Source of the DNA: Patescibacteria group bacterium
GTDB taxonomy: Bacteria > Patescibacteriota > Microgenomatia > UBA8517
Assembly: GCA_035260845.1 (NCBI GenBank)
Contig: DATFUL010000003.1
Span: 75,620-139,619 of the forward strand
Direction of reading: 5' to 3'
DNA length: 64,000 bases
Shown: piece by piece, positions 3,581 to 34,674 of the stretch
How positions within the stretch are numbered: position 1 is the stretch's first letter
How the letters are laid out: each line of letters opens with the position of its first letter
The notes under the pieces: model-generated
Databases searched by the model: none
What the model saw: only the letters and a program-made list of their open reading frames with translations
What the model was told of the DNA's origin: nothing
Translations under genes and position numbers: made by a program

Positions 3581-4708
3581 TTATGACTTTTGAGAGAAAA
3601 ACTCAGCAACCTTTGCCGATACATAATCAACTTCCTTTAAACTCATAAACTGATGACATGGAATAGATAATATTTCATTTACAAATCTTTCTGAAACTGG
3701 AAGCTTGGGAACTTTTATATTTAATGTTCTTAAAACAGGCTGTTGAGGGATCGTTATAGGGAAATGAATTAAGGATGGTATACCATTATCCATAAGAAAC
3801 TTTTTAAGTTCATCTCTTTTTTTTGTTTTGATAACGAACAGATGAAAATTTGAATCACTTATTTTTTTAGGCAAGACTAAAGTTAAACCTTTAATTTTAG
3901 AAAGGTTGTCAACATATCTTTTAGCAAGCTCTCTTCTAAAATCGTTGTCTTTTTGTAAAAATTTCAACTTAACTCTTAATATTCCTGCGTGTAGTTCGTC
4001 CAGACGACTATTTAAACCATAAACAACATGCTTATATTTATATTCCTGGCCATAATCACGCAGTTGTTTAAATTTATTTGCCAAAATTTTATCATTCGTT
4101 ATTAAAGCTCCCCCATCACCAAAAGCTCCTAAATTTTTTGTAGGATAAAAACTAAAACAACCAACATCACCAAAAGTCCCCAACTTTTTATTTTTAAAAT
4201 AAGATCCATGTGCCTGACATGAATCTTCAATCAAATATAATTCATGCCTCTTACATATAGACTTTATTTGATCAAGATCACAGGGCTGACCATATAAATC
4301 AACCGGTAGAACTGCCCTAGTTTTTTTTGTAATTAATTTCTCAATTTTACCTGCATCAATCTGTCCATTTTCGTTAATATCAGCAAAAACGGGCCTTGCT
4401 CCGACCGCAACAATTGCTAACGTGGTCGCTACTGCAGAAAGAGGCGTGGTTATTACTTCATCCCCCTTTCCAATTCCATAAGCCATTAAAGCAATCTGAA
4501 TAGCTTCAAGGCCATTGGCAACACCAACACAATATTTTGTTCCTAAATATTTAGCAAATTCTGTCTCAAACTTTTCAACCTCACTCGATAGTACATAGGA
4601 TCCAGATTTAAGAACCGTTGATACAGCCTTCATATACAATCTGCCACGAACCTTAACTTCTTTGGGAAAATCCAAATAGTTAATTTTTTTAATTTTATTG
4701 TTCACCAT
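3581..4708 (-). CDS. DegT/DnrJ/EryC1/StrS-family PLP-dependent sugar aminotransferase (FdtB-like)
   Basis: DVGCFSFYPTKNLGAFGDGGALITND, plus the active-site-Lys region and GLEAIQIAL. This is the textbook DegT family pattern. Confidence 0.9.
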   Translation of the reverse strand: MVNNKIKKINYLDFPKEVKVRGRLYMKAVSTVLKSGSYVLSSEVEKFETEFAKYLGTKYCVGVANGLEAIQIALMAYGIGKGDEVITTPLSAVATTLAIVAVGARPVFADINENGQIDAGKIEKLITKKTRAVLPVDLYGQPCDLDQIKSICKRHELYLIEDSCQAHGSYFKNKKLGTFGDVGCFSFYPTKNLGAFGDGGALITNDKILANKFKQLRDYGQEYKYKHVVYGLNSRLDELHAGILRVKLKFLQKDNDFRRELAKRYVDNLSKIKGLTLVLPKKISDSNFHLFVIKTKKRDELKKFLMDNGIPSLIHFPITIPQQPVLRTLNIKVPKLPVSERFVNEILSIPCHQFMSLKEVDYVSAKVAEFFSQKS

Positions 4709-5261
4709 ATGATTTTAGAAAGTCATCATAACTTCTTACATAATCTTGAGGGTCATGCCGTTCTGAGGCAAGAACTAAGAGAATAGTATCTTTTTTAAAA
4801 CCCTGCATCTCATGCCAAACTCCTGGCTCTAATAATACACCAATATTTGATTTATTTAATAATACTTTTTCTTTCTTCTTACCATCGTCTAAAACAATAA
4901 TAATACTACCTTGAATACAAAATAAAACCTGGATAGTCTCTTTGTGTGTATGAGCCCCGCGCACAGCACCAACTGAAACTCCAAAAATGTAATAGACTCT
5001 TTTGATGTCAAATGGAACGTCAGGAGATTGGAGTTGACATAAAGAACCATCTGTTGACATTAAGGGGGCCGTAATCAATTTTACAAGCTTACCTTTGTCT
5101 ATTTCAGAAATAATCGGATCGCTCTTTAAATTTAAAATATTTTCAAAAAAGAAGACTGCAAGGAGATAAAAAGGTTTGCCTATTAAAACTAATATCTTAA
5201 CAACATTTCTTAAAAAATCTCTCATCCGCAGAATTATATCGCACCAGGATCGAAAGTCCAC
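4695..5261 (-). CDS. FdtA/WxcM-like NDP-4-keto-6-deoxyhexose 3,4-ketoisomerase (cupin). The N-terminal extent is uncertain.
   Basis: STDGSLCQLQSPDVPFDIKRVYYIFGVSVGAVRGAHTHKETIQVLFCIQGS...VWHEMQGF...LVLASERHDPQDYVRSYDDF matches the FdtA consensus (RG-L...PF-IKRvYyi...RG-HaH, WHe, YdE-DYiRdYd-F). The cupin domain occupies 4695..about 5081. The first 60 aa of the longest ORF (GTG start) are hydrophobic and atypical for FdtA. Confidence 0.75.
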   Translation of the reverse strand: MDFRSWCDIILRMRDFLRNVVKILVLIGKPFYLLAVFFFENILNLKSDPIISEIDKGKLVKLITAPLMSTDGSLCQLQSPDVPFDIKRVYYIFGVSVGAVRGAHTHKETIQVLFCIQGSIIIVLDDGKKKEKVLLNKSNIGVLLEPGVWHEMQGFKKDTILLVLASERHDPQDYVRSYDDFLKSYGEQ

Positions 5262-10402: not shown

Positions 10403-11806
10403 TTAGGATTTTTGTCTATTAGATTGAAGTTTATACAACAAAATAGCACTCGAGAAGAATACAAAAGGTAAGTAATGATTTGTAAACCTAGTAAAGTCTG
10501 CCGAAAGCCACCAACTTAATCCTCCATAACCGCCGGTTAAGGTTGGTGAAAATAAAATTATAATAAAAACTATTAAAAAATTGACTAATATAATTAGTGT
10601 GCTAAATATAGTTACGAAGTCTCGGATTTTTATAAAACTCAATATTGAGATCAAGGTAAAGATGGTAAGTACAAAGTAACCAGTTGCAATCTTTCCGATC
10701 TCTTGCCAAAAGAAAGCAAGTATTTGAACAGATTTCTGAAGCATATAGCTTAAATTATTCCAATTTTCATTAAATCCTGAAACTGCAACATTGAAGTTAT
10801 CATTAGAAATACTGTGAATATGAAGATAAATTTGCCATGGTAAATAATAAATTAATAGAATAAATATTAAAAGTGCAAAACTTTTTAATGCGTTTATTTT
10901 ATTTATAAAGAATGTGACTAGACAAAATACCAAAATAGCAGCAAGTGAATACAATACACCCTCTGTTCTTATCTGAGATACCATTCCTAAAAGGATTCCA
11001 ATAAATCCAACATTCTTCCATTGAATTTGCTGATCGACAATTAAAAGCATAAGAATTAAAGCCAAAGAATAAAATACTGAAAGAGGTAGGTCGGAATATG
11101 GTGCTCCCCAACCAATATTTATAAATGCACCAGCAACAACAAGCGATAAGGGAATATAGCTTATGAGATTTCTAATCTTTATGAACCTAAAGGATGCGGT
11201 AATCGCAAATACCCAGTAAACATAATATAGGATTATTGGAATAATTTGTGTTAATTTATCTTGAAGAATCATAAAGTCTGCAAGAAGTATTGACCAAAAC
11301 CTTGGATACTCTTCAAACGGTATCAAATCCAGGTCCTTAAATGATCCAGATTCGATTAAAACTTTCGCCTTTGGAATCCAATGTATAATTTCATCCCACC
11401 AAATGGGTGGATTATTAAATAACTGAACTGCAGCCGCCAAATACCAAATCGTGCCAAAAATAAATAGACGGAGTGTAATTTTTTTTGTATCACCATTTAA
11501 AAAAACAGTATTGGCAACAACTTCTTTGATATCTTTTTTATAAACAAGAAAAGTAATCCTATTTATTAAAACCATAAACACTACGCTTAATAAAAGAGCT
11601 ATTAAAATTAATGGCCAGCCAAAATCTAAAAATTGAAGGAGAAGGAATTCTGTGAACACAAAAATACTAAGTCCTACAAGCACTGAAAGAGAAATTAATT
11701 CGGGAATCAAGAATTGCTTAACCAACCTCTTTGCAAAAACCATTTTGGTTATAAAATAAAAAATAAAAAGTGGTGCAAGATATAAAAATATTCTTAGTAT
11801 TAACAT
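10403..11806 (-). CDS. Uncharacterised polytopic membrane protein (about 12 TM). Candidate GT-C-like transferase or polymerase.
   Basis: 467-aa ORF, hydrophobic throughout. It shares a TAATG stop/start overlap with the upstream gene. Confidence 0.5.
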   Translation of the reverse strand: MLILRIFLYLAPLFIFYFITKMVFAKRLVKQFLIPELISLSVLVGLSIFVFTEFLLLQFLDFGWPLILIALLLSVVFMVLINRITFLVYKKDIKEVVANTVFLNGDTKKITLRLFIFGTIWYLAAAVQLFNNPPIWWDEIIHWIPKAKVLIESGSFKDLDLIPFEEYPRFWSILLADFMILQDKLTQIIPIILYYVYWVFAITASFRFIKIRNLISYIPLSLVVAGAFINIGWGAPYSDLPLSVFYSLALILMLLIVDQQIQWKNVGFIGILLGMVSQIRTEGVLYSLAAILVFCLVTFFINKINALKSFALLIFILLIYYLPWQIYLHIHSISNDNFNVAVSGFNENWNNLSYMLQKSVQILAFFWQEIGKIATGYFVLTIFTLISILSFIKIRDFVTIFSTLIILVNFLIVFIIILFSPTLTGGYGGLSWWLSADFTRFTNHYLPFVFFSSAILLYKLQSNRQKS

Positions 11807-12240
11807 TATTTTTTTAGTATTATAAATGGATACAATGTTGAACTGTCTGTTGCTTCTAAAATCGATGGGGAATCTGTAATTGAGTATTCACAGTTACTAC
11901 AGTTCACTACCAGTTTTCTTCCGAGCAAAAAATACGGTGCATACCAGGCCTTGGATAAACTAACAAAATCGTCTGTTGCATTTATTTTTGCATTATACGG
12001 CGTCTTACCTTCTATGATGGAGAAATAAATTGCTGCTTCTCCAATTGATCTAGCAATTGCATCACGATATGGAGGCAGAGGGCTTCTTGTAAAATCAGAT
12101 AAATTCAACTGTAAAAGTGGCCCTATAAAATTACCTTTAACAAGAGCTAAGAAAATAAATACAACAACTATATAGTTCAAAGATTTTAAGTAGAAATTGC
12201 TTATCTTTTTATTCATGCCGATGCGTTTTCTTGAATACAC
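11806..12240 (-). CDS. Hypothetical signal-anchored protein of 144 aa
   Basis: One N-terminal TM segment then a soluble domain with a CSNC pair. No family was recognised. Confidence 0.4.
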   Translation of the reverse strand: MYSRKRIGMNKKISNFYLKSLNYIVVVFIFLALVKGNFIGPLLQLNLSDFTRSPLPPYRDAIARSIGEAAIYFSIIEGKTPYNAKINATDDFVSLSKAWYAPYFLLGRKLVVNCSNCEYSITDSPSILEATDSSTLYPFIILKK

Positions 12241-13856
12241 ATCTTTAATTTGTCGGCTTTAACTTTTGGCCAATACAACGTTTTATAGTCAGAGTCTTGA
12301 ATATAGCAATTTTTTAATATCTTAGGAAAATTAATTACTCTTCCTTCAAAGGATTTATAGTCAAGATCTCCGGCTGTTGGATTGTAAATTATTGCGGAAG
12401 GGGTATTTGTAATAATATTACTTTTGTATTCAAGTCTTTGCCAGTCTTCTACTACAAGGTTTGCGATAAAAAACCTTGTACAGGGCCTTCTTTCCGAATA
12501 AAGATATGTCGTCCCCACTCCCCAACCATATATATCTAAGATACATTCATCCTTAGTTGTTTTCGTGTCTATCTTATCCAAAATCGGAGTAACTTTGTTC
12601 TTGTCTGCCCAAATTGCTAACTTGGGAATAAATCTTATGTTCAAAATATTATTAAAATTATAATCTATAAAATACGCTTTCTTTGGAAACAGAAAGGACA
12701 AAAAAAATAAAAGCATTAATACTCTCAACCATTTTGTTTTCTTTATAGAAGCTAGTTTTTTATCTGTATAATAAAAACAAAGAGTTATAAAAATAATAAG
12801 TGGCATTACTAAAACAATGTAATAATGAGATCCTAAACTTCTTTGCATCACAAAACCTATAGATAATCCTAATACAAAAAATATCATTGGCCACACCTTT
12901 CCTTCAACTAAATTGGAATTGAAAGTACTCTTAATATATTTTTGCCCATTATTGCTAACAATCTTGAGGTTTAGTGATTTGTTGCGTAACTTAATGAATA
13001 CTGTAACAGCTAATAATATTAATATGGGTAAGAAAATTGAGTACCCTAAATAAAAAAATACATCCTTACCAAAGTCAATATGAACTAAAAAGTTTTCGGA
13101 AAGCCACGAAAGGTCAAATACATTAAAGGCAATACTTTTATAATTCAAGATTGAAATATAATCTTTTATTGATCCTAGTAAAAACAAATAAAGTATATTT
13201 ATACCGGCTGAAGATATAACACCCAAAACTGAAAAAAGAATCCCATCGTAGAAATCTTTTTTTGATTTGAGAAGTAAAAATAGAACATAAGGCAAAAGAG
13301 CTAATCCAGAAAGAAGAAACGGATCTTTTACTTGGCCAGAGAAAAAAAACAAGAAGGCACTTATAAATATAGCTTTTCTATAGTTCTTAAAATAATAAAG
13401 TGAGGCTAGACCCGCAATGGAAAACAATGAGGCTAATATTTCTGCTGGAAGAATAAAAGTCGTCAGCCTTGTTGAAAATAGGAAAAAATATATAAGGCCA
13501 GCAGAGATATTTAAATAAACTCCAGATACCACATTCCTAAGGGTATAAAACACTAAAAAGACAATCAAAATAGAGGCAACTAAATGAAGTGTCTTTATAG
13601 ACAAAGGTGAGAAACCAAAAAACTGGGACCACACGTCAAGAACAATGTAATGTCCTGGAGGAGTGATTTCCCAAAAATTTTTATACGGAACTCCAAGTCC
13701 AATCCTATGTGCCTCGGCTGGTAAAACTCTAGATACAATATCAGCACCTAATGTTGGTTCACCGGCGTAATGAAAAATATTAATTAATGCAAACAATATT
13801 CCTGCAAAAATCGTAACTAAATTAAACATTTTCAATATAAAAGATTCTTTCATCAA
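12213..13856 (-). CDS. Uncharacterised polytopic membrane protein with a C-terminal soluble domain of about 150 aa
   Basis: 547 aa, at least 10 TM, then a hydrophilic tail. This architecture resembles GT-C enzymes. Confidence 0.5.
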   Translation of the reverse strand: MMKESFILKMFNLVTIFAGILFALINIFHYAGEPTLGADIVSRVLPAEAHRIGLGVPYKNFWEITPPGHYIVLDVWSQFFGFSPLSIKTLHLVASILIVFLVFYTLRNVVSGVYLNISAGLIYFFLFSTRLTTFILPAEILASLFSIAGLASLYYFKNYRKAIFISAFLFFFSGQVKDPFLLSGLALLPYVLFLLLKSKKDFYDGILFSVLGVISSAGINILYLFLLGSIKDYISILNYKSIAFNVFDLSWLSENFLVHIDFGKDVFFYLGYSIFLPILILLAVTVFIKLRNKSLNLKIVSNNGQKYIKSTFNSNLVEGKVWPMIFFVLGLSIGFVMQRSLGSHYYIVLVMPLIIFITLCFYYTDKKLASIKKTKWLRVLMLLFFLSFLFPKKAYFIDYNFNNILNIRFIPKLAIWADKNKVTPILDKIDTKTTKDECILDIYGWGVGTTYLYSERRPCTRFFIANLVVEDWQRLEYKSNIITNTPSAIIYNPTAGDLDYKSFEGRVINFPKILKNCYIQDSDYKTLYWPKVKADKLKMCIQENASA

Positions 13857-13857
13857 A

Positions 13858-15276
13858 TTAATCTAGAATTTTAGTTATACCAAACTTAAACAACGCCTGA
13901 AAAGCCTTTTTGCCTTGAACAATGTAATCATCGGAGACAGTGGCAGTAAAAATTATAAGCAAGGGAACAATAAAACTTGATAGACGCTGCTGTGAATCTA
14001 TAATAGCTTTCCAGTTTTCTGGCCATATATAACTAAATATATAAGTCCCAAAAAATAGCAGTGCAATATTTGCTAATACAAAATATAAAAATATCCTGGC
14101 TTTTTTAATATCCTTCCTGGCAAACATACCAACAAAAAACGCAATTAAAAGATAAGGTTGCCATGTAGGGATAGTTCCTTGGATTGTAGTCGCAACTACA
14201 TCGATAAGTCTTGGTAAATTAAATACCTGGATTGAATGAATTGCATACCCTGCTTGATCGCTAATGTTTCTACCACCACCAATCATACTTGTCTCATACA
14301 ACCTCCATGGTTGCTGTATTGCAAAAAATATTCCAAATGAAATTGCAACAATAAGTAGCGTGGAAAAGAATCTCTTTTTCATTTCAGGAACTAATAAAGC
14401 AACTACGAATAACATATTTACAACCCAAAAAGGTTCAGTTTGTCTCACCCATGTACTTAAACCAACAAGAATTGAACCAATCAATAAAAATGCTTTATTC
14501 TTTTCTTTTGTATAGCGGCACAAATATAAAATTGAGGAGATTAGATAAATTAAATACGGAAAATTTGTATAATCAAAATATGATCCTGTATAAATTGACA
14601 TAAGCGAAATTAAAATTAGAGTCGTTAACATTAGTGTCAGTCTGCTTAAGAAAGGTCGAAGACAATAATAAACAATGGGTGTAAAACCGAAATACAAACC
14701 CCAATAGAAAAGGTGTGGATTACCTTTAAAAAAGTACATCCAAGTATGCGCAAGTGACGTCATGAGAGGGTAACCGAAAAAATATCCGCGGGAAATACCA
14801 TCAGCCATCCCTCCAGTTGCAACAAAAGTTATGGCACGAAAATCATATAAGACCAACGAGTCCCATCCATAAACGGGGAAAAACACTCCAACCAACAAGC
14901 TAGTTAAAAGAAGTCCAAATATAGCTGCTACAAACAATTTTGTTAATAAATCAGCTTTAATAAAGCTTGATGATAATTTTTTGAAGAAACTTATTGAATT
15001 GCCAATTTTTAAAAATTTTATGATTTGTTGAAAGGACTTTGTTAAAAAAATGGCAATACTTAAACCCAGAGCTAAACCTAAAACTTCCGCTAAAGAGTTT
15101 AAAAGAGTGAACTTAAGCCCGAAAAGATAAAAGATAAACATAAAGAAAGTCTGAAAGCCAAAACCGAGAAGAATTCCAAGTCCAATTCTTTCTATACGCC
15201 CCACATCCAATCTAAACAAAAAGGTAATCAGAATTCCAAATGTTGTTGTTATAAATAGTCCTATTAATCCATTCAT
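13858..15276 (-). CDS. Uncharacterised polytopic membrane protein
   Basis: 472 aa and hydrophobic throughout. The gap to neighbours is 1 nt. Confidence 0.5.
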   Translation of the reverse strand: MNGLIGLFITTTFGILITFLFRLDVGRIERIGLGILLGFGFQTFFMFIFYLFGLKFTLLNSLAEVLGLALGLSIAIFLTKSFQQIIKFLKIGNSISFFKKLSSSFIKADLLTKLFVAAIFGLLLTSLLVGVFFPVYGWDSLVLYDFRAITFVATGGMADGISRGYFFGYPLMTSLAHTWMYFFKGNPHLFYWGLYFGFTPIVYYCLRPFLSRLTLMLTTLILISLMSIYTGSYFDYTNFPYLIYLISSILYLCRYTKEKNKAFLLIGSILVGLSTWVRQTEPFWVVNMLFVVALLVPEMKKRFFSTLLIVAISFGIFFAIQQPWRLYETSMIGGGRNISDQAGYAIHSIQVFNLPRLIDVVATTIQGTIPTWQPYLLIAFFVGMFARKDIKKARIFLYFVLANIALLFFGTYIFSYIWPENWKAIIDSQQRLSSFIVPLLIIFTATVSDDYIVQGKKAFQALFKFGITKILD

Positions 15277-15277
15277 A

Positions 15278-16273
15278 TTATCGTTTTAAAACTATGATCC
15301 CCCAAAGATCATCATAAGTGTGATCATTTGGATCGTAGTCTTTATCTAAAATTATTGGTGGCTTAGTATAATCATTGTCGGTCATATATAATATTTTTTC
15401 AGCTTTTACAGGAAAGGTTGGCCACTTTTCTATATATTTATCCACTCTTGGCGGCCCATACGCGCGGTGAATAAAGACATATGATATTCGTGGATCATTA
15501 AGTGAATTTTCATCTCCTGCTTTAGTAAACCTGGGGTAAATAAAACTTCTAACATAACCATCATTACTTAAACCTGGCCACTTACTTTGTTGTGTCATCC
15601 TCATTATTACAGCATCTGATGGGGTGTTGTTATCAACAAACAACATATAATCATAAAAGTCGGCAAACAAATATCTACCCTTCCATACTTTGTCTGCAAA
15701 CGGATGCTTTATTACTGCTGACAATTTCGGTTTTATATCATAAAAGTCGCTACTTAAATTCATAAATATTAAATAGACAAAAAGCGAAGTAATGAGGAGT
15801 GATAAAAACACTCTCGGTAACTCATGTAATTTATACTTTCCAAAAAGTCCCTTTCTTGTTGCTGTATCAATCAAAAAAATCAATAACGAAATTGCAAATA
15901 AATAAAAAAAGTAGCTGGGATCAAAATGATATCCGTGTGTATAGACATATCCTTTGTAATGTTGTCTTTCTAAGGAGATAAATATTGCGCCTACTAGTAT
16001 TAGTGCCGGTAAAAATAATGTTGTTAACTTGGAAAGTAGCTCAAAATATTTTGTCTTTTCAATAGTGACCATATTAACAACCACCAAATATCCACTAATA
16101 ACTAATAGTGCAAAAAATATTTGAGGATCCAAAAAAAGGTGGCCATGAATAAATCCAGGATAAGTAACAGCCTCTAAAACCACAATAACTCCAGTAACAA
16201 TTGCAAAAAAAGGAAAAGCAACTGTGTTTAAATATAAAAATCGCTTGAAAAGTTTCTTTTGTGAATTATTCAT
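15278..16273 (-). CDS. Uncharacterised membrane protein with a C-terminal soluble domain of about 150 aa
   Basis: 331 aa, about 5 TM, then a hydrophilic domain. Confidence 0.5.
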   Translation of the reverse strand: MNNSQKKLFKRFLYLNTVAFPFFAIVTGVIVVLEAVTYPGFIHGHLFLDPQIFFALLVISGYLVVVNMVTIEKTKYFELLSKLTTLFLPALILVGAIFISLERQHYKGYVYTHGYHFDPSYFFYLFAISLLIFLIDTATRKGLFGKYKLHELPRVFLSLLITSLFVYLIFMNLSSDFYDIKPKLSAVIKHPFADKVWKGRYLFADFYDYMLFVDNNTPSDAVIMRMTQQSKWPGLSNDGYVRSFIYPRFTKAGDENSLNDPRISYVFIHRAYGPPRVDKYIEKWPTFPVKAEKILYMTDNDYTKPPIILDKDYDPNDHTYDDLWGIIVLKR

Positions 16274-16274
16274 T

Positions 16275-18059
16275 TTATTTATTTACTTTATAAATATCCC
16301 AATAGTAGTTGTCTTGTGATTCTGACAAGATTGGGTTAAAACTGTAGTCACGATTCTTAATTACCATCGATAACCAATGTGGAATATAGTTCTTAAGAAA
16401 TTGCATTGGGGGGTAATATAATTTGTTATCAATATGTATATCAATCCTTATTGGCCCGTCAAGTTTTCCCTTTTTAAAACCTTGATCATTTGAAACCTGC
16501 TTAAACTCACCAGCCCTTAAAAGAACGTCTCCAATTTTTAAGTTATTTACGTTATCGAAGTAAATAACTTTTATGTCGGGTCGATTAAAAAATAGCCTTA
16601 GGTGCAACCCTATTTCCTGTTTTAATTCAAGAGCGGTTCCTGGTGGCGTATCCAAAACAACAGTTCCGTTTTCCTTAACATTGTTTGCAAGATTTGATAT
16701 TAGAGGTTTGTTAAAATTGTTTGTAAGTCCATAGATTCTAGTTATATATTGACCCATCATTAGTAAGTTATAGCTAGTAACTATAAATACCAAAAACCAA
16801 ATTAACTTAACTAAAAAAGTACCATATCCATTAAGACCAAATTTGCGAAGAAATTTATCTTTACTTATTTGATTTAAACCATTAATTGTATTTGATAAGA
16901 GAATACCTAGACAAATACTAAAAAAGTATATGCCGGGAAACAAATATCTGGGTATTTCAAATTCCCACGGAAGTTGAACCATAAAAAAAGACAGAAATAC
17001 CATCCCGAAAATTAAAACAAAATAATCTAAATAAGTTATTTTCCTATTGTTGTAAAGGCCAATCAATTTGAAAATTAAATATATTCCAGTTGTTATTAGG
17101 AGTGGCTCAAACGTAATCCATATGGAAGTTGCATAACCTGTAAAGTTACTTTTTATATTTTGGAAAGTTAATATATAATCGGAAGCATAACTTCCAGATC
17201 TATAATTCATACTTGCACCATATCTAGCTAGCATCAAAAGGGCAAGGTTCCAAATCATATAAAAAAAGACTGGCCCCTTGAGTTTTTTGGAATGATCTAC
17301 AACGGCTGACCATATATAAATCATTACAGGGAATATCACAAAAGCGAGTGAGTTTTCTTTCATAAAATATGCTGGGAAAAGCATGGCGATAGACATGAAA
17401 AAGTAAGCCTTGGCTAATTTATTATTAAATCTAAATATATTTTTAAGATCATTTCTTGAAGGGATAAGTGAAAGTAAATAATAAATTGGTCTTTTAAATA
17501 AATCCTTTAAATTGATACTGTATTTTTGCAATGATTTTTCACTAACGATATAAAAAACCATAAATAAAACAGATAAGGCAAGGAAGAATATGAGAGGTGC
17601 TTCTTGAGGACCAAGTCGATACCAATTTTCCTGATTTAAAGTATTGGCAACAAACAAAATTCCAGCTAAAAATCCGGCCACTTTACTACCAGAAATTTTG
17701 AGTGCGGTTAGATAGCATGCAATAACAATTACCAAGATCAATAAAAATTGAATTAAGCCATGACCAAAATGACTGATTCCAAATTGTGTATAAACCAACC
17801 AGTGATAAAACCAATACGCAGGCCTAAATCTGCCAACTTGAGGATCTGTTAACCATTGGAGTATATGCCCCTTAAATAAAATACCTATCGTCGAAGACAT
17901 TCTTTGAGATACCTCAATCATTTCTCCATCGTCAACAAATGACCAATAAGTTGATGGAGCAAAGCCGCCAATACAAATCGTTGTAATGACGAGTAAGGTT
18001 AAACCAATATTATTTTGGACCTTATTCAATGTTTCTTTTAAAAGTTTCATTAGAGTCAA
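16275..18059 (-). CDS. Uncharacterised polytopic membrane protein of 594 aa with a C-terminal soluble domain. Possible GT-C.
   Basis: N-terminal TM, then an acidic loop (SFVDDGEMIEVSQRM), many further TM segments, and a C-terminal tail of about 170 aa. Confidence 0.5.
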   Translation of the reverse strand: MTLMKLLKETLNKVQNNIGLTLLVITTICIGGFAPSTYWSFVDDGEMIEVSQRMSSTIGILFKGHILQWLTDPQVGRFRPAYWFYHWLVYTQFGISHFGHGLIQFLLILVIVIACYLTALKISGSKVAGFLAGILFVANTLNQENWYRLGPQEAPLIFFLALSVLFMVFYIVSEKSLQKYSINLKDLFKRPIYYLLSLIPSRNDLKNIFRFNNKLAKAYFFMSIAMLFPAYFMKENSLAFVIFPVMIYIWSAVVDHSKKLKGPVFFYMIWNLALLMLARYGASMNYRSGSYASDYILTFQNIKSNFTGYATSIWITFEPLLITTGIYLIFKLIGLYNNRKITYLDYFVLIFGMVFLSFFMVQLPWEFEIPRYLFPGIYFFSICLGILLSNTINGLNQISKDKFLRKFGLNGYGTFLVKLIWFLVFIVTSYNLLMMGQYITRIYGLTNNFNKPLISNLANNVKENGTVVLDTPPGTALELKQEIGLHLRLFFNRPDIKVIYFDNVNNLKIGDVLLRAGEFKQVSNDQGFKKGKLDGPIRIDIHIDNKLYYPPMQFLKNYIPHWLSMVIKNRDYSFNPILSESQDNYYWDIYKVNK

Positions 18060-18105
18060 AGCAGATACAAGACATCAGATATTTTTCATATATAATATCG
18101 ATATC

Positions 18106-19224
18106 ATGAGAAAAAATATTTTCCAGCAATTCTATCACAAAAAGCTTCACAGCATTCATGAATCTTTTAAAAAAACGAAAGATGGGTATTATAAAAAAAT
18201 TATACCTGATGAGACAGTTGGGGGCGTAAAAGACCTACAAGCTTATCTTGAAAATCTGAGGAATTCAATCAAATCAAAATCGCTTATTTTACTAACATAT
18301 CATAACCATCTTTGGGAGCCAGTTCTAAGTATTGCTTCATATTTTGGACTCAGGAAAGAGGTCAAGATTCAAAATTGGCTTGAAGAGGAAGATATAAAAA
18401 ATATATTACAACTTTCTGGATTTGAGATTACAGAAAAACCGAAAAGTTATTTGCTTTCTTTAATTACTAGTGTTATCGCCAGGCCAAATCAAAAATTTAA
18501 GCCGCCTAGTCGTAAATACAGTGTCACTATTGTTGTGCCTGCCAGAAATGAGGCGGGCAATATTCCCAAAATTGTTCCGGCCATTCCTAAATTTGGAAAG
18601 TGGCAGGAAATAATTTTTGTGGAAGGAAATTCAACTGACAATACTTGGATAAAAATAAAAAACCAGATCAAGGGTCAGAAAAAAAATATTGCTTTAAAAC
18701 AAAGTGGAGTTGGAAAGTCCGATGCGGTGAAATTGGGATTTGACAATGCAAAAGGAGATATTCTAATGATTTATGACGCAGATATGACAGTTGCAGCATC
18801 TGATCTAAAGAAATTTTACACTGCTTTGGCACAGAACCCCAGAACCTTTGCAAACGGAAGTCGTATGGTTTATCCAATGGAAGAAGACGCAATGAGGACG
18901 CTAAACAAAATTGGAAATAAAATATTTAGTTTACTTTTTAGTTGGATCTTAAATACAAAATTCAAAGATACTTTATGTGGAACTAAGGCAATATTTAAAA
19001 AGGATTATCTTAAATACAAAGATGACTATATAAATTATTTAAAGGTTGATCCTTTTGGCGATTTTGCATTAATATTCACAGCTATAAAAAATAAACTTAG
19101 AGTTGTTGAAATACCAATACGGTATAAAGAAAGAGTTTATGGAACAACCAATATCAAACGATTCAAACACGGATTAATACTTCTAAAGATGTCGCTTACA
19201 GCATTCCTTGAGTTTAAGCTTTAG
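18106..19224 (+). CDS. GT2 polyprenol-phosphate sugar synthase-like glycosyltransferase with an N-terminal extension of about 150 aa. The ATG at 18106 is preferred over the overlapping longer ORF.
   Basis: YSVTIVVPARNEAGNI, FVEGNSTDNT, YDADMT. The longest ORF starts inside the convergent upstream gene; the ATG at 18106 removes that overlap. Confidence 0.7.
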   Translation: MRKNIFQQFYHKKLHSIHESFKKTKDGYYKKIIPDETVGGVKDLQAYLENLRNSIKSKSLILLTYHNHLWEPVLSIASYFGLRKEVKIQNWLEEEDIKNILQLSGFEITEKPKSYLLSLITSVIARPNQKFKPPSRKYSVTIVVPARNEAGNIPKIVPAIPKFGKWQEIIFVEGNSTDNTWIKIKNQIKGQKKNIALKQSGVGKSDAVKLGFDNAKGDILMIYDADMTVAASDLKKFYTALAQNPRTFANGSRMVYPMEEDAMRTLNKIGNKIFSLLFSWILNTKFKDTLCGTKAIFKKDYLKYKDDYINYLKVDPFGDFALIFTAIKNKLRVVEIPIRYKERVYGTTNIKRFKHGLILLKMSLTAFLEFKL

Positions 19225-19880: not shown

Positions 19881-21311
19881 TTAATAATTTAAAAACTGAC
19901 GAGATTTTATCTTGATACCACTAGTCCCGCCATATTTGACGCGTTGTGCAAGTTTTGGAAAAAATACAAAGAAAAAATTATTATCAGACAATGTTGTTTT
20001 TAAAGTTGCTGTTGGTGACCATGGTAAATCAATGTCCGATTCTGTATCCACAAAATCGATTTCATTGCCCTCAAGTTTGACCTCATTAATCTTAAAATAA
20101 TCAAAAACTTTACGGGAAATTATAGCTTCCTGGGATATCCAGTTAGTTTGATAAGTAAATTTCAATGTTAGCCAAGAAGTGAGAGTCCAGATAAAAAGAA
20201 ATAATCCTATAAAAATTTTATTTATTTTGGTTGCAATAAGCAGGTAAGAGATTCTAAAAACAACTCCTATGAGGGGTAATGTTAAATAAAATGTAAATTT
20301 ATGAAACGGTAGAAAAGCTACAGGAAGTAATGCTGCAATAAACCAAACGATGCAAAATATTGAAACTTGATTACTGCTTTTGACTTTCTGTTTTAATGTT
20401 TTTATCAAAACAGATGCCAAAATAATTAGCTCGGCGACAAATAAAAACAAAATGGGTCTAACCTGACTCCCCCAATAAATGAACAAATTCTGGTTTATTT
20501 TTATTCCAGGGCCAATAAAATCGACAAATGACTCCGGAACATTGAAAGACCAAACTAAATACCATAAAACCGTATTAAAAAACCTTTTAACAGATAGGCT
20601 CCAAACATAACTGTCGCCCGTTGCAAAACCATACCAATTAAAACGAATAAATAGATAGACAAATAAAGAAATCATAAATGGAATTATTAAAATCAAAAAT
20701 CTTTGAATTATCTTTTGATTTATTTTGTTTTTTGTTTTATAAAAATAAATTAAACCCAAAAGGATAGGCGTAATCACAGCCGTCTCTTTAGACAAAAGCG
20801 CTAAAACAAAAAATATAAAACTGAGAAGATTTTTATTTTTTACAAACATTAATAAGCTTAGGAGAACAAATAGTGTCATTCCTAATTCTTGAAATGTCGC
20901 CAAATAATATAAATGTCCAAAATGCGTCGCAGAAGTGGCATAAAGAAAAGCTGAAATTAAAGCTATTGTGCTGTTAGCGAATAGAAATTTTCCGAGAATA
21001 TAAACCAAATAAATAATTATAAATAGAAACAAAAATGAAACTACATGTAGATATATTGGATTTGTTCCAAATATTACTCTTCCAAAAAAATAAAAAACTT
21101 GAGTTGTTAGTGGCCTATACATCCCAAAACTGTCAGGAGCATTGAAAATGTTAAAGAAATTAAAAAATTCACCAATGCTTTTTATTGTAGATATCTTTAA
21201 AAAAAAGAAATCATCATTTGTAAAAAAGGTAAATAAGGAGGGATAAAAAATACCAAATGAAATTAGAAATGTGAAGATTAGGTATTTATACTTTTTAAAT
21301 ATATTTATCAT
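19881..21311 (-). CDS. Uncharacterised polytopic membrane protein (GT-C-like)
   Basis: 476 aa with many TM segments. There is an early acidic/aromatic loop FTNDDFFFL. Confidence 0.5.
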   Translation of the reverse strand: MINIFKKYKYLIFTFLISFGIFYPSLFTFFTNDDFFFLKISTIKSIGEFFNFFNIFNAPDSFGMYRPLTTQVFYFFGRVIFGTNPIYLHVVSFLFLFIIIYLVYILGKFLFANSTIALISAFLYATSATHFGHLYYLATFQELGMTLFVLLSLLMFVKNKNLLSFIFFVLALLSKETAVITPILLGLIYFYKTKNKINQKIIQRFLILIIPFMISLFVYLFIRFNWYGFATGDSYVWSLSVKRFFNTVLWYLVWSFNVPESFVDFIGPGIKINQNLFIYWGSQVRPILFLFVAELIILASVLIKTLKQKVKSSNQVSIFCIVWFIAALLPVAFLPFHKFTFYLTLPLIGVVFRISYLLIATKINKIFIGLFLFIWTLTSWLTLKFTYQTNWISQEAIISRKVFDYFKINEVKLEGNEIDFVDTESDIDLPWSPTATLKTTLSDNNFFFVFFPKLAQRVKYGGTSGIKIKSRQFLNY

Positions 21312-22096
21312 ACAAATATACCAACCAACTCCCTTCCAAAATTATTTAATAGATGTAACGCAAGCACTAGCGGATTGTGCGTATACTTTTTAACAACTTT
21401 CCAATCCTCTTTAAGTAGTTGCATGTACATTGTCTTTGTTTTTGTATTATCATCAATTCTAAACTTGGAGATGTTTTTATTAATAACAGTCGGCACAGAG
21501 ATTCTACATAGTTTTAGCCACAGGTCATATTCCATAATAAAATCTTTTGTGCCTGTAAAGGGTCCATATTTTTTCAATGCGGCTTTACTAACAAACACCG
21601 ACGGCTGAATTAAAAAATTATTAGCTAGTAATGAATAATAATTGATCCGAGATAACAAAAAGTTTTTATACCAAGTAACAGGTTTTGCGATTTCGATATT
21701 CTTTTTATTCACCACCGCCCCCCGCCCAGAAAACCACAACGAATCTGGGTGGGTTTGATATGCTTTTGAAATTAAAAAAAGAGCGTTTCTTTCATAACAA
21801 TCATCAGCGTTGATAAAAGTTACAATATCGCCGGTCGCTTTTTCAAGTCCCTTATTTACAGCGTCAAGTTGACCGTTATCTTTCTTTGACTTAAAAATAA
21901 TATTATATCTTTTAACATATTCTTTAATTATCGAAACGGTTCCATCCGTTGACCCACCATCGTTTATAATTACTTCTAAATTTTTATACTTCTGCTCAAA
22001 GATTGATTTTAAAGTTTGATCAATATATTTAACCTTATTATATGAAGGGATAATTATGGAAATTTTTGGGAGAGCGTCATTTTTTTCTCTTCGCAT
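21308..22096 (-). CDS. GT2 glycosyltransferase (SpsA-like)
   Basis: ISIIIPSYNKVKYIDQTLKSIFEQ, DGGSTDGT, NADD. Confidence 0.85.
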   Translation of the reverse strand: MRREKNDALPKISIIIPSYNKVKYIDQTLKSIFEQKYKNLEVIINDGGSTDGTVSIIKEYVKRYNIIFKSKKDNGQLDAVNKGLEKATGDIVTFINADDCYERNALFLISKAYQTHPDSLWFSGRGAVVNKKNIEIAKPVTWYKNFLLSRINYYSLLANNFLIQPSVFVSKAALKKYGPFTGTKDFIMEYDLWLKLCRISVPTVINKNISKFRIDDNTKTKTMYMQLLKEDWKVVKKYTHNPLVLALHLLNNFGRELVGIFV

Positions 22097-22411
22097 TTTT
22101 AAAAGCCTCTTTCCTAACCAAATCCTCTAATTTTTTTTCATTTCGCTTTGTTCTTAAATATGTACTTCCAACCATTGAAATAACCAGGGCAAAACCACCA
22201 ATAACCATTAAGTCGAAGACGCGAGTTACCAGAAAAGTCATAGAAAAAGATCTAAGAAGTTCAGGGAAAACAACAACAATTATTGCAAAGCACCAAAGTA
22301 CTAACCAGGAAATTATTTCGAGCTTTGTCAATTCTCCACGCTTAAAACCAAGAATAGCAAAATAAGTCATACTAAAAGCAAATAAAAGTGCCATAATTTG
22401 CAAACCAATAA

Positions 22412-22430
<19 letters not shown>
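22077..22430 (-). CDS. Small membrane protein, DUF2304-like, companion of the upstream GT2
   Basis: 117 aa with 3 TM and a basic C-terminal tail. It directly overlaps the GT2 gene at 22412..23080. GT2 followed by DUF2304 is a recurrent pair. Confidence 0.55.
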
Positions 22431-24081
<1,651 letters not shown>

Positions 24082-29274: not shown

Positions 29275-30918
29275 TTATTCTTGAAAATTGCTATAAATCT
29301 CAAATGCTGATTTTCCATCTAAAAAGTTGACTGCATTAATCTTATTCCATCCTTTTGGATAATTACCAGGGGATGTAATTAATAGGCATCTCATATTTTT
29401 ACAATCTATTTTTACTTTACTTTCCGTGACAAGATCTTTTATTTGCCAGTCATTTACGAAATAAAACTTGTCAAATCTGTCTACCCAATACCAATTTGAT
29501 TGAAAAAAAGTAATCTTACTTGCATCATTTAGATATTTTGATGGATTGTAATATAAATAAAATAGAAAATATTCATGCGGTTCACCATATTTTTTTGTAA
29601 CAATTATCTTGTCATACTCGCTATCGTGCTGTTTTACATAGTCAACAGCTTGTTTGTATCCATATTGCCAACTCCAACTGTAGTTAGTTCTATAAGCAGT
29701 AACATAATTAACGATATAACTTTCGGCAAATATAAATGTAAGAATTGCATATATAGAAACTGTCAAAAACTTGTAATTTTCTTTTACTTTTGATAACAAT
29801 TCAAAAAAACAAATCGAAATTAAGATTTCAGGAATAGGAAGCATGGTTGTAGCCCGAATGACAGCAAAACTTTCGTTTGTTAATGAGGCAGGAATGGGTG
29901 AAAGAATAAGCCATAAAAGCAAAAATCTATAATTTTTGTCTTTTAGTGCCATTGCGATAATAAATATTATTCCTATATAAAAAAATGGCAGGTTTACTGG
30001 GTAAATTAGTCCAAAATTTGGAACACTGAATTGGTACTGAGTGCCACCTTTTATAAACAAAAATTTAGGAGAAAAATAACTAATGTAATTTTTAGAAAAA
30101 TTTTCTATAAAATAAACAGGGCGGTTGTAAATAATCCTCTTAATATTATTAGGAAGTTTTGATGAGTTTCTGGCTTCAATAATTTTATTTACAGCACCCT
30201 GATCAACAAGAAACAGAACATTGCCCCGGGCAGTTGCCCCGGGGTTTATTAAGATATAAGCAGAAAATAATATGAAAATTCCTGCAAAAACATAGATTAC
30301 TTTGCTGCTTATTTCTTTTCCGTAAATAAGAAGTGTTCCAATCAAAAGTAGTGGAGAAAATATTCGTGTTGTATGGTAAGAAAAAAGAGTCAGAAAGAGT
30401 GAAATAAAAGAAAAAGAAAGAAAGTGTTTATTCTTTTCTCTGTTCACAAAGAGTGCAGCAGCTGTAATTAAAAAGAAAACCGATAAATTTGATTGGAGTA
30501 CAAACCTTGATGTAAATACATACCATGGGCTAATTGCAGTCAAGAAGCTGGAAAATAAGCTGATGTCTCGTCTCTTTGTAATTCCAAACGCTAAAAAGTA
30601 AACAGAAATTATTGTTAAAACCCCAAGGATTGCGTGTGGAAAACGAATAGAAAATTCTGTTAAACCAAATAGCGCGATAAAAGGTATTGTTAAATAAAGA
30701 TTTAGTGTGGTTGGATAATCCCCATAAGCTCTAAAATTAAAAAAAGGCAACCTTTGACCCCATTGATCCATCCCCGTCTTAAGAATTGAATAAGCATTGT
30801 AACCATGACTAACTTCATCCCAATTAAGTGCAGGCGGATTCCAAGATAAAAAGGTGAACCTTAAGACGGCTCCCAAAACAATAATTAAAATTAAGTATGT
30901 TAAGTTCTTTCTGCCCAT
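29275..30918 (-). CDS. GT-C ArnT/PMT-like membrane glycosyltransferase, family A paralog 3
   Basis: LNWDEVSHGYNAYSILKTGMDQWGQRLP with the same architecture. Confidence 0.75.
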   Translation of the reverse strand: MGRKNLTYLILIIVLGAVLRFTFLSWNPPALNWDEVSHGYNAYSILKTGMDQWGQRLPFFNFRAYGDYPTTLNLYLTIPFIALFGLTEFSIRFPHAILGVLTIISVYFLAFGITKRRDISLFSSFLTAISPWYVFTSRFVLQSNLSVFFLITAAALFVNREKNKHFLSFSFISLFLTLFSYHTTRIFSPLLLIGTLLIYGKEISSKVIYVFAGIFILFSAYILINPGATARGNVLFLVDQGAVNKIIEARNSSKLPNNIKRIIYNRPVYFIENFSKNYISYFSPKFLFIKGGTQYQFSVPNFGLIYPVNLPFFYIGIIFIIAMALKDKNYRFLLLWLILSPIPASLTNESFAVIRATTMLPIPEILISICFFELLSKVKENYKFLTVSIYAILTFIFAESYIVNYVTAYRTNYSWSWQYGYKQAVDYVKQHDSEYDKIIVTKKYGEPHEYFLFYLYYNPSKYLNDASKITFFQSNWYWVDRFDKFYFVNDWQIKDLVTESKVKIDCKNMRCLLITSPGNYPKGWNKINAVNFLDGKSAFEIYSNFQE

Positions 30919-34089: not shown

Positions 34090-34674
34090 ATGAATTATTT
34101 TAAAAAAATAGTAATTGTATTTTGTATTATTCTTTGGCCTCTAAATTTATTATTAAACTTCAAAGGCAACACCTCATTTGAGACGATTTTTACCAATGAT
34201 TACCAAGGAGAACAGTTAATTCTTAGAAACATACACCTCTATCCGACTATTGCTCTCGCAAGGGTTTTTCAAAACAAACCGAGAATTTATATTTATAAGT
34301 TTTTTAATAATTTGTTTATATTAACTGATCCTAATAATTATTTTTTCGGACTTCATCCGGAACCAATTCCGGGACAAAACAATATTTTCAAATATCAATT
34401 CGTCGCAATTGTATTTTTTGCGTATGGCATATTTAGTATTTCAAAGTACAAATATAAAAATATAATTCTATTCACTTTTATTCCTTTTGTATTATTTCTA
34501 TCAATTTTAAAAAACTTCTACGGATTAGACCTAATTTTGTGGATCCCAATTTCTTTGACAATAGGCAACGGTGTAACACAGATGATGATTGATAATAAAA
34601 AATTGTTCACAGTTACATCAATACTGCTTATCGTATTTGCAGTTCCTGAATTAATAAGGAGTTTTATAAGGTAA
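34090..34674 (+). CDS. Hypothetical small membrane protein of 194 aa
   Basis: ORF with 4-5 hydrophobic segments, divergent from 32353..34044. No family was recognised. Confidence 0.4.
   Translation: MNYFKKIVIVFCIILWPLNLLLNFKGNTSFETIFTNDYQGEQLILRNIHLYPTIALARVFQNKPRIYIYKFFNNLFILTDPNNYFFGLHPEPIPGQNNIFKYQFVAIVFFAYGIFSISKYKYKNIILFTFIPFVLFLSILKNFYGLDLILWIPISLTIGNGVTQMMIDNKKLFTVTSILLIVFAVPELIRSFIR

What the first reader, a model, noticed from the sequence alone, without database searches (positions are those of the whole stretch)
10403..18059. Block of six consecutive uncharacterised polytopic membrane proteins
10403, 11806, 12213, 13858, 15278 and 16275 form a co-directional array with 1-nt gaps and TAATG-type overlaps. 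It encodes five large multi-TM proteins and one small anchored protein, and none carries a motif I can assign.

Several have the GT-C architecture of many TM segments plus a periplasmic C-terminal domain. They could be additional glycosyltransferases, Wzy-like polymerases or ligases for the glycan built by the surrounding enzymes. Nearly 8 kb of contiguous unknown membrane machinery inside a glycosylation locus is worth structural annotation.
Basis: seen in the sequence. Interest (0 to 1): 0.55.

Follow-up and report, generated by a model that had tools for sequence, protein, structure and literature searches.

The report
Divergent GT-C glycosyltransferase operon with partners
The six unannotated membrane genes are four very divergent lipid-sugar-dependent (GT-C) glycosyltransferases plus two membrane-anchored partner proteins of an undescribed family that always sits directly in front of one GT-C subtype, which suggests a two-subunit surface-glycosylation enzyme in uncultured Patescibacteria.

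Summary
Six co-directional minus-strand genes at 10403-18059 are packed with TAA-N-ATG, ATGA and TAATG junctions. No curated family matches any of them above threshold, and GenBank calls the three gene products I looked up 'hypothetical protein'; the contig is a Patescibacteria MAG.

Four of the six are divergent GT-C glycosyltransferases:
- P6 (594 aa) matches this window's own PMT_2/ArnT-type paralogs by profile comparison at 99%.
- P3 (547 aa) matches them at 97%.
- P1 (467 aa) is a full-length paralog of P4.

No Wzy, O-antigen ligase or transporter match was found.

P5 (331 aa) is not a GT-C. It has a duplicated two-helix hairpin, a fifth helix and a ~150-aa outside domain. Its confident model (pLDDT 91) has no solved structural analogue, and its family has 437 cluster representatives.

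A P5-family gene lies directly upstream of a P4-family gene in all 24 loci examined. Natural P4::P5 fusions exist, as does a fusion of the P5 N-terminal module to a P6-like GT-C. P2 (136 aa) looks like a short P5-type protein paired with P1.

Most likely, P5/P4 and P2/P1 are two-subunit GT-C enzymes fed by the neighbouring polyprenyl-phosphate sugar synthases. This is a new variant of a known kind.

The parts
16275..18059 (-). P6: divergent GT-C glycosyltransferase with its own C-terminal outside domain of about 165 aa. The likely start is 18050 (591 aa, HKB88305.1).
   Evidence: Profile comparison with 14 PMT_2-type paralogs of this window gives probability 99.0, E 3.9e-18, over 408 columns. 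The invariant W39/D43-D44-G45 that follows TM1 aligns on their D-E motif. Other invariant motifs are GRFRP, ENWYRLGPQE, KE and RYL. Pfam, NCBIfam and PDB sequence searches give no hit.
15278..16273 (-). P5: partner protein of an undescribed family. It consists of two repeated TM hairpins (TM1-2 and TM3-4, each ending in an E-x3-Y-x-G-[FY] motif at the outer face), then TM5, then an alpha/beta outside domain of about 150 aa (HKB88304.1).
13858..15276 (-). P4: GT-C-fold glycosyltransferase core with three extra N-terminal TM helices and no C-terminal outside domain.
12213..13856 (-). P3: divergent GT-C glycosyltransferase with a C-terminal outside domain that carries four invariant cysteines. 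The likely start is 13853 (546 aa, HKB88302.1).
   Evidence: Profile comparison with the window's PMT_2 paralogs gives probability 97.4, E 1.3e-11, over 124 columns; against the P6 family it gives 82.7%. An Asp in G-A-D-I-V-S after TM1 is conserved in all six full-length family sequences. C438, C459, C517 and C540 are invariant.
11806..12240 (-). P2: small single-TM protein with an outside domain of about 100 aa. It is probably a short P5-type partner for P1. The likely start is 12216 (136 aa).
   Evidence: hhalign against the P5 family gives 66%, E 5.5e-5; P2 residues 23-113 align on TM5 plus the first half of the P5 outside domain. The P5-family HMM hits P2 at E 5.1e-5 among the window's 56 proteins. 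blastp against a 154-aa short P5-family protein that precedes a P4/P1-type gene in L021 gives 3e-4. P2 has a conserved CxxC.
10403..11806 (-). P1: paralog of P4, with the same layout of a GT-C core and no outside domain.
   Evidence: P1 aligns with the P4 family over its full length and shares the invariant W-D, Y-P, R and P positions. blastp links both P1 and P4 to L004 2233-3609. A weak NCBIfam hit points to a putative glycosyltransferase family, E 3e-5.
21308..23080 (-). Context: a GT2 - DUF2304 - GT2 cassette (22412-23080, 22077-22430, 21308-22096), the likely source of polyprenyl-phosphate-sugar donors.
   Evidence: Pfam assigns Glycos_transf_2 and DUF2304. The best NCBIfam match of 22412-23080 is the polyprenyl-phospho-GalNAc synthase PpgS (2.6e-31), followed by AglJ. 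The same cassette accompanies the module in L002, L023 and L024. GacI/GacJ and PpgS/Rv3632 are the studied examples.
17986..19224 (+). Context: a divergently transcribed GT2 of the AglJ / dolichyl-phosphate hexose transferase type. Its real start is probably downstream of the overlap with P6.
   Evidence: Pfam Glycos_transf_2 4.4e-19; NCBIfam AglJ 1.1e-27. A homologous position is occupied in L002 by a 362-aa GT2 on the opposite strand, just upstream of the P6 homolog.

Best explanation
The block is one translationally coupled operon for glycosylation on the outer face of the membrane, in a Patescibacteria (CPR) bacterium.

P6, P4, P3 and P1 are highly divergent GT-C-fold transferases of the ArnT/PMT_2 kind. 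Such enzymes take a single sugar from a polyprenyl-phosphate carrier on the outer face of the membrane, using a conserved Asp in the first outside loop, and add it to a surface acceptor.

The donors are probably made by the neighbouring GT2 polyprenyl-phosphate sugar synthases. One of these sits next to a DUF2304 gene, the arrangement of the GacI/GacJ synthase-activator pair.

P6 and P3 carry their own C-terminal outside domain, as ArnT does. P4 and P1 lack it. Each is instead preceded by a gene for a membrane-anchored outside domain: P5 before P4 and P2 before P1. I infer that P5 and P4 (and, more weakly, P2 and P1) assemble into a two-subunit enzyme. The partner would supply the outside domain, probably for acceptor binding or for stabilising the active-site loops. 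P6 may join the same assembly.

Shown here: gene structure, the GT-C fold of P4, GT-C profile homology of the other three, the P5 family and its internal repeat, the invariant P5-P4 adjacency, and the fusions.

Inferred: physical association, the role of the outside domain, and the identity of donors and acceptor.
For: GT-C identity:
- Profile comparison with the window's PMT_2 paralogs gives P6 99%, P3 97.4% and the P4/P1 family 85%. Those paralogs hit ArnT 5EZM at 2.3e-6.
- An Asp follows the first core TM in every family.

Partner hypothesis:
- A P5-family ORF lies directly upstream of a P4-family ORF, on the same strand, in all 18 loci retrieved with a P4 query that have upstream DNA. Two of these are duplicates of each other.
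- The reverse test also holds. Six of 6 loci retrieved from P5-family proteins chosen independently have a P4-family gene directly downstream; one is on a contig already seen.
- Gaps between the two genes are mostly -4 to +8 nt.
- P0063 and P0092 are single polypeptides made of a P4-like part followed by a P5-like part (blastp 2e-11 and 1e-19).
- L010 1730-3718 fuses the P5 four-TM module to a P6-like GT-C.
- P6-family genes directly precede P5 in 6 further loci.
- Short P5 forms with only TM5 and the outside domain still precede P4/P1-type genes: L003, L015, L021.
- In this window, the two GT-Cs of the block that lack an outside domain are exactly the two preceded by such a protein.

Donor supply:
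- A PpgS/AglJ-like GT2 with DUF2304 and a second GT2 lie nearby.
- Rush et al. show the GacI/GacJ/GacL logic, and Kelly et al. describe three-component systems.
Against: - There is no direct evidence for a P4-P5 complex. Adjacency and a few fusions also fit tight pathway coupling.
- In the fusions P4 comes first, whereas in the operons P5 comes first.
- The P5 outside domain shows no detectable similarity to the C-terminal domains of P6, P3 or the PMT_2 paralogs, nor to any solved structure. 'Supplies the missing domain' is therefore an argument from architecture, not from homology.
- The link between P2 and P5 is weak (66% hhalign; E about 1e-4 to 1e-5 in small searches).
- L001 has the P6-P5-P4-P3 core without P2 and P1, so that pair is dispensable.
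- No GtrA-type flippase was identified next to the block.
- Donor and acceptor are unknown.
- Structures for P6, P3 and P1 were not predicted.
Confidence: 0.6

Rival explanations
1. P5 is not a subunit but a separate step of the same pathway. Its four-TM double-hairpin module, with a conserved Glu in each repeat, might flip or deliver the polyprenyl-phosphate sugar to the GT-Cs, or recycle the carrier. It would be co-located only because the steps are coupled.
For: The 4-TM module is a separable unit. It is duplicated in tandem in P0024 and P0029, and fused without the outside domain to a P6-like GT-C in L010. Each repeat has an invariant Glu (E34, E102). No GtrA-like flippase is found beside the block. 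The size and topology recall small four-helix flippase candidates; this last point rests on general knowledge and was not tested.
Against: Short family members that lack the 4-TM module keep the position directly upstream of P4/P1-type genes. The constant feature of the pairing is therefore TM5 plus the outside domain, not the hairpins. Fusion into one chain with P4 is more typical of subunits. No similarity to any transporter family or fold was found.
Confidence: 0.2
2. The large proteins are Wzy-type polymerases or O-antigen/WaaL-type ligases rather than GT-C transferases.
For: They are polytopic membrane proteins inside a glycan locus that also has a Wzx-like flippase at 49638-51131. P3 and P6 were not modelled, so their folds were not checked directly.
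Confidence: 0.04
3. Some of the four are decayed, catalytically dead GT-C paralogs that serve only as scaffolds, and P5 and P2 are unrelated small membrane proteins that happen to lie between them.
For: The divergence is extreme: there are no blastp or phmmer hits to the 14 other GT-C paralogs of the same window. Pfam scores are below threshold.
Against: Each family keeps invariant acidic and basic residues across homologs of 25-60% identity. Synteny of P5 with P4 is invariant across distant loci. The gene junctions indicate co-translation.
Confidence: 0.06

Closest known systems
ArnT (GT83) and the PMT_2 / GT39-type bacterial GT-C transferases (solved: C. metallidurans ArnT, 5EZM/5F15)
   Different: The sequences are too far apart for Pfam, NCBIfam or PDB sequence searches to reach. 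P4 and P1 have three extra N-terminal helices and lack the C-terminal domain. A separate partner gene has not, to my knowledge, been described for ArnT-type enzymes.
Three-component extracytoplasmic glycosylation systems (GtrA/GtrB/Gtr*; GacI-GacJ-GacK-GacL; CsbB/GtcA/YfhO; PpgS-Rv3632-Rv3779)
   Same: The logic is the same: a cytoplasmic GT2 loads a sugar on polyprenyl phosphate, sometimes helped by a DUF2304 protein, and a GT-C transfers it outside the cell. The window has the PpgS/AglJ-like GT2, the DUF2304 gene and the GT-Cs.
   Different: Here four GT-Cs lie in one operon, and at least 19 in 64 kb. No GtrA-type flippase was recognised beside them. There are also extra partner proteins (P5, P2) that act on the GT-C side. 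GacJ, by contrast, partners the GT2 side.
Multi-subunit or heteromeric GT-C enzymes (eukaryotic OST with STT3 plus accessory subunits; Pmt1-Pmt2; EmbA-EmbB-AcpM)
   Same: The idea is the same: a GT-C catalytic core works with other membrane subunits. STT3B, Pmt1, Pmt2 and EmbA are among the fold matches of P4.
   Different: No sequence or fold relation exists between P5 and any of those subunits. The association is inferred from gene order and fusions only.

Membership tests
GT-C fold glycosyltransferase superfamily | Polytopic membrane core of about 8-13 or more TM helices. | tested here: met
   The hydropathy scan gives 8-11 TM segments for P1, P3, P4 and P6. The P4 model is all-helical, with about 14 membrane-length helices.
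GT-C fold glycosyltransferase superfamily | Three-dimensional similarity to solved GT-C enzymes. | tested here: met
GT-C fold glycosyltransferase superfamily | Sequence-profile relation to recognised GT-C families. | tested here: met
   hhalign against the window's PMT_2-positive paralogs gives P6 99.0%, P3 97.4% and P4/P1 85%. That reference profile hits ArnT 5EZM at 2.3e-6.
GT-C fold glycosyltransferase superfamily | Conserved acidic residue in the first extracytoplasmic loop, after the first core TM. | tested here: met
   P6 D43-D44 is invariant. P4/P1 W138-D139 is invariant. P3 D40 is conserved in all full-length homologs. The positive-inside pattern of the flanking loops places these residues outside; this was read from the sequence.
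GT-C fold glycosyltransferase superfamily | Use of a polyprenyl-phosphate-linked sugar donor. | not testable with these tools
   Context only: PpgS/AglJ-like GT2 genes and DUF2304 lie next to the block.
Pfam PMT_2 (PF13231) | Score above the curated gathering threshold (26.1 bits). | tested here: not met
   P4 scores 17.7 bits (E 0.004). P1, P3 and P6 have no hit. Four of 10 P4/P1-family homologs do hit, best E 1.8e-7. These are therefore relatives of PMT_2 but not recognised members.
Wzy polymerase / O-antigen (WaaL) ligase | Wzy_C / O-antigen ligase domain, or fold similarity to WaaL or Wzy. | tested here: not met
Three-component periplasmic glycosylation system (Gtr/Gac type) | A polyprenyl-phosphate sugar synthase (GT2), a flippase and a GT-C encoded together. 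| tested here: inconclusive
   The GT2 synthase candidates and the GT-Cs are present. No GtrA-type flippase was recognised near the block. A Wzx-like protein lies 30 kb away.
P5 as a GT-C or any known accessory family (DUF2304/GacJ, GtrA) | Profile or fold similarity to those families. | tested here: not met

The most novel reading that the evidence does not exclude
P6, P5 and P4 form a hetero-oligomeric GT-C machine in which P5 is an obligatory non-catalytic subunit. P5 is a protein family with a fold not seen in any solved structure. In this reading its duplicated hairpin module docks onto one GT-C and its outside domain onto the other. That would make this the first bacterial GT-C enzyme built from separately encoded subunits, a prokaryotic counterpart in principle to the eukaryotic oligosaccharyltransferase complex, and apparently specific to Patescibacteria.
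Probability: 0.3. Interest if true: 0.72.

Novelty: new variant of a known kind. Interest (0 to 1): 0.55.

Why it matters
Patescibacteria (CPR) are uncultured, tiny, often episymbiotic bacteria whose cell surfaces are almost unstudied. This contig devotes at least 19 GT-C genes in 64 kb to surface glycosylation.

Showing that the 'hypothetical' block is GT-C machinery gives function to genes that the curated family libraries leave unassigned. The P5 family has 437 cluster representatives, no Pfam model, no solved analogue, strict pairing with one GT-C subtype, and occasional fusion to it.

That makes P5 a concrete, testable candidate for a new kind of GT-C accessory subunit. It could inform how GT-C enzymes recognise acceptors, and it offers a marker for a lineage-specific envelope pathway.

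Tried and rejected
- blastp and phmmer of the six proteins against all other window proteins gave no hits. Paralogy only appears at profile level.
- PDB sequence searches with the P6-family and P4-family profiles gave nothing meaningful.
- The afdb50 fold library was not available.
- I tried to build one alignment for the natural P4::P5 fusion P0063 from both families. MAFFT placed the P4 family on the wrong half, and padding with duplicate fusion rows did not fix it reliably, so the fusion was not modelled.
It was solved by obtaining protein ids through cluster look-up.
- A metagenome scan with P2 found no relatives.
- hhalign of the P5 family against the P6, P3 and PMT_2 families showed no significant relation between their outside domains. 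P5 is therefore not simply a detached copy of a standard GT-C C-terminal domain.
- The exact-sequence contig look-up for P4 and for P0168 failed. The source was identified through cluster members instead.
- Promoter and terminator scans inside the block were not above shuffled expectation. That fits a single transcription unit but is not informative on its own.
- Literature searches for Patescibacteria with GT-C, and for DUF6798, returned nothing.
Full report
**1. What is there**

- P6, 16275-18059
- P5, 15278-16273
- P4, 13858-15276
- P3, 12213-13856
- P2, 11806-12240
- P1, 10403-11806

Read on the coding strand, P6/P5, P5/P4 and P4/P3 are each separated by TAA, one base, then a start codon. 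P3/P2 share ATGA once P2 is started at the ATG at 12216. P2/P1 share TAATG.

A simple hydropathy scan gives 8-11 TM segments for P1, P3, P4 and P6, five for P5 and one for P2.

Pfam finds nothing except a sub-threshold PMT_2 match on P4 (E 0.004). NCBIfam finds only a weak hit on P1.

Cluster look-up shows that the window comes from a 'MAG TPA: Patescibacteria group bacterium' contig of 608,867 bp. There P3, P5 and P6 are HKB88302.1, HKB88304.1 and HKB88305.1, all labelled 'hypothetical protein'.

**2. Surroundings**

The 64-kb window is an extraordinary glycosylation region.
- Fourteen further proteins of about 480-590 aa belong to one PMT_2/PMT-type GT-C family.
- One protein matches YfhO/PTPS_related, and one is a Wzx-like flippase.
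- There are also several GT2 and GT4 enzymes, sugar epimerases, a DegT aminotransferase, FdtA, and many SAM methyltransferases.

Just upstream of the block in transcription order lie a methyltransferase, a PMT_2-type GT-C (19881-21311) and a GT2 - DUF2304 - GT2 cassette (21308-23080). The best NCBIfam match of GT2 22412-23080 is PpgS, the polyprenyl-phospho-GalNAc synthase, followed by AglJ. A second AglJ-like GT2 (17986-19224) is transcribed divergently from P6.

**3. Four of the six are divergent GT-C transferases**

blastp and phmmer see no paralogy between the six and the rest of the window. Profiles do.
- **P6.** The P6 family has 12 sequences. It aligns with the window's PMT_2-type paralogs at probability 99.0, E 3.9e-18, over 408 columns. 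The invariant D43-D44-G45 after TM1 falls on their D-E motif.
- **P3.** The P3 family aligns at 97.4%, E 1.3e-11.
- **P4 and P1.** P1 aligns with the P4 family over its full length and shares the invariant W138-D139, Y169-P170, R278, W324, R431 and P438. The joint family aligns with the PMT_2 paralogs at 85%, E 6.3e-6. Four of its 10 members hit Pfam PMT_2, best E 1.8e-7. One homolog is named 'glycosyltransferase family 39 protein' by NCBI.
- **Reference profile.** The PMT_2-paralog profile itself hits ArnT 5EZM at 2.3e-6.

No Wzy, WaaL or transporter fold appears. Its alternatives are not supported.

**4. Architecture differences**

P6 and P3 end in outside domains of about 150-165 aa after the last TM, like ArnT and like the other GT-Cs in the window. 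The P3 domain has four invariant cysteines, which fits an extracytoplasmic location.

P4 and P1 have three extra N-terminal helices and no such domain.

**5. P5 is something else**

P5 had only six relatives in the word-indexed search. An exhaustive profile search then found 437 cluster representatives at E <= 1e-3, most of them 310-360 aa long.

Its AlphaFold model, built from 80 sequences, is confident at pLDDT 91.3. It shows five TM helices, a small beta-hairpin between TM3 and TM4, and a C-terminal alpha/beta domain.

TM1-2 and TM3-4 are an internal duplication: hhalign gives 96%, E 3.6e-9. Each copy ends in a conserved motif, L-E-A-V-T-Y-P-G-F and L-E-R-Q-H-Y-K-G-Y. By the positive-inside rule these motifs lie at the outer face, as read from the sequence.

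P5 has no recognisable relatives outside its own family:
- Profile comparison with the GT-C families gives nothing.
- Pfam gives only weak DUF6798 hits, in 6 of 80 relatives.
- The fusions and short forms also carry no Pfam domain.

**6. P5 is tied to P4**

Loci were retrieved with the P4 family as query from genome and metagenome collections, and two more from the first look-ups. Their ORFs were classified with HMMs of each family.
- In all 18 loci that include upstream DNA, a P5-family ORF lies directly upstream of the P4-family ORF on the same strand. L008 and L009 are duplicates.
- The reverse test also holds. Six P5-family proteins were taken from the exhaustive search without reference to P4. 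All six have a P4/P1-family gene directly downstream. One of them is on a contig already seen.
- Spacing between the two genes is almost always -4 to +8 nt.
- A P6-family gene directly precedes P5 in L001, L002, L007, L014, L015 and L018.

Fusions link the three families:
- P0063 (759 aa) and P0092 (781 aa) are single chains. Each has a P4-like N-terminal part, including the W-D-A-V-A-L-Y-D motif, and a full P5-like C-terminal part (blastp 2e-11 and 1e-19).
- L010 1730-3718 (662 aa) joins the P5 four-helix module (E 1.7e-15) to a P6-like GT-C (hhalign 96.8%, E 2.5e-10).
- Other variants duplicate the four-helix module (P0024, P0029).
- Others drop the four-helix module altogether. L003 (204 aa), L015 (197 aa) and L021 (154 aa) keep only TM5 and the outside domain, and they still sit directly upstream of a P4/P1-type gene.

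**7. P2**

P2 has one TM helix and an outside domain of about 100 aa with a CxxC. It is followed with a TAATG overlap by P1, the paralog of P4. Three lines of evidence link it to P5:
- It aligns with TM5 plus the first half of the P5 outside domain (hhalign 66%, E 5.5e-5).
- The P5-family HMM hits it at 5.1e-5 among the window's proteins.
- It matches the 154-aa short P5-type protein of L021 at 3e-4.

The evidence is suggestive, not strong. L002 keeps the P2-P1 pair and L001 lacks it.

**8. Mechanism proposed**

Established knowledge of three-component systems supplies the framework. A GT2 loads a sugar on undecaprenyl phosphate, in some systems helped by a DUF2304 protein such as GacJ or Rv3632. 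The lipid-linked sugar then reaches the outer face, and a GT-C transfers it to the acceptor (Rush et al., bioRxiv 10.1101/180810; Kelly et al., PMC11127046). The window supplies each of these parts except a recognised GtrA-type flippase.

I propose that the operon encodes four such GT-Cs, which act on a surface glycan or on surface proteins. I further propose that P5/P4, and probably P2/P1, are two-subunit enzymes in which the partner provides the outside domain that single-chain relatives carry themselves. P6 may join the P5-P4 assembly.

The fold and homology assignments, the synteny and the fusions are shown. Physical association, the role of the outside domain, and the identity of donor and acceptor are inferred.

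**9. Rivals**

- **P5 as a separate pathway step**, for example a lipid-sugar flippase. This fits the separable four-helix module with conserved Glu residues. However, the short forms keep the pairing without that module, and no transporter similarity exists.
- **Wzy or ligase identity.** This is contradicted by the fold and profile results.
- **Decayed pseudo-enzymes.** This is contradicted by the conserved catalytic-loop residues and by the synteny.

**10. Verdict**

The block is a set of very divergent members of a known kind (GT-C).

The added value is a previously undescribed partner family with no solved structural analogue, strictly coupled to one GT-C subtype in Patescibacteria. I rate it a new variant of a known kind, with interest 0.55.

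Noticed in passing
window 1960-60961 (whole window): At least 19 GT-C-type genes lie in 64 kb: 14 PMT_2/PMT-type paralogs (1960, 19881, 25969, 27619, 29275, 32353, 34693, 36403, 39445, 41122, 43783, 54163, 56930, 59423), one YfhO/PTPS_related-type (52406-54139), and P6, P4, P3 and P1. This is an unusually dense paralog expansion for a small-genome CPR bacterium.
   Followed up: partly
window 30900-32369, 38114-39448, 47981-49678, 51124-52422, 61694-62854, 34090-34674: Six further polytopic membrane ORFs (4-10 predicted TM) have no Pfam hit and no match to any of the family HMMs built here. They could be more unrecognised glycan-assembly proteins; a Wzy- or ligase-type role was not examined.
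   Followed up: partly
window 21308-23080; L002 1147-2958; L023 2208-3980; L024 542-2463: A GT2 - DUF2304 - GT2 cassette recurs next to the P5-P4 module in several unrelated contigs. This suggests a conserved donor-synthesis unit of the GacI/GacJ or PpgS/Rv3632 type.
   Followed up: partly
window 17986-19224 (+): The longest ORF of this AglJ-like GT2 overlaps the start of P6 by about 70 nt, and it carries a partial methyltransferase-like region (Methyltransf_23, E 1e-4) ahead of the GT2 domain. The true start is probably an internal ATG near 18106, which leaves a short divergent promoter region.
   Followed up: no
P0024, P0029 (also P0050, P0057, P0066, P0067, P0093 by length and two matched stretches): P5-family variants of about 470 aa contain a tandem duplication of the four-helix module, giving four hairpin repeats, before TM5 and the outside domain.
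   Followed up: partly
L021 7967-8485 and 8482-9018: A 172-aa weak P5-family member (E 6e-6) sits directly upstream of a P3-family gene. Short P5-type partners may therefore pair with GT-C types other than P4/P1.
   Followed up: no
L004 (JAWAEI010000062.1) and L006 (CAYQZC010000097.1): P5-P4 pairs occur on 4-kb contigs binned as 'Pacearchaeota archaeon' and 'uncultured Pseudomonadales'. Given that all long contigs are Patescibacteria or Microgenomates, these are probably binning errors rather than true distribution.
   Followed up: no
window 3581-5261: A DegT-type aminotransferase and an FdtA-like 3,4-ketoisomerase lie together, and at least five SAM methyltransferases are scattered through the locus. 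This points to 3-amino-3,6-dideoxyhexose and methylated sugars in the glycan.
   Followed up: no
window 55743-56165: A small three-TM DUF1761 protein is embedded among the GT-C genes. Its function is unknown, and it could be a candidate small flippase or accessory protein.
   Followed up: no
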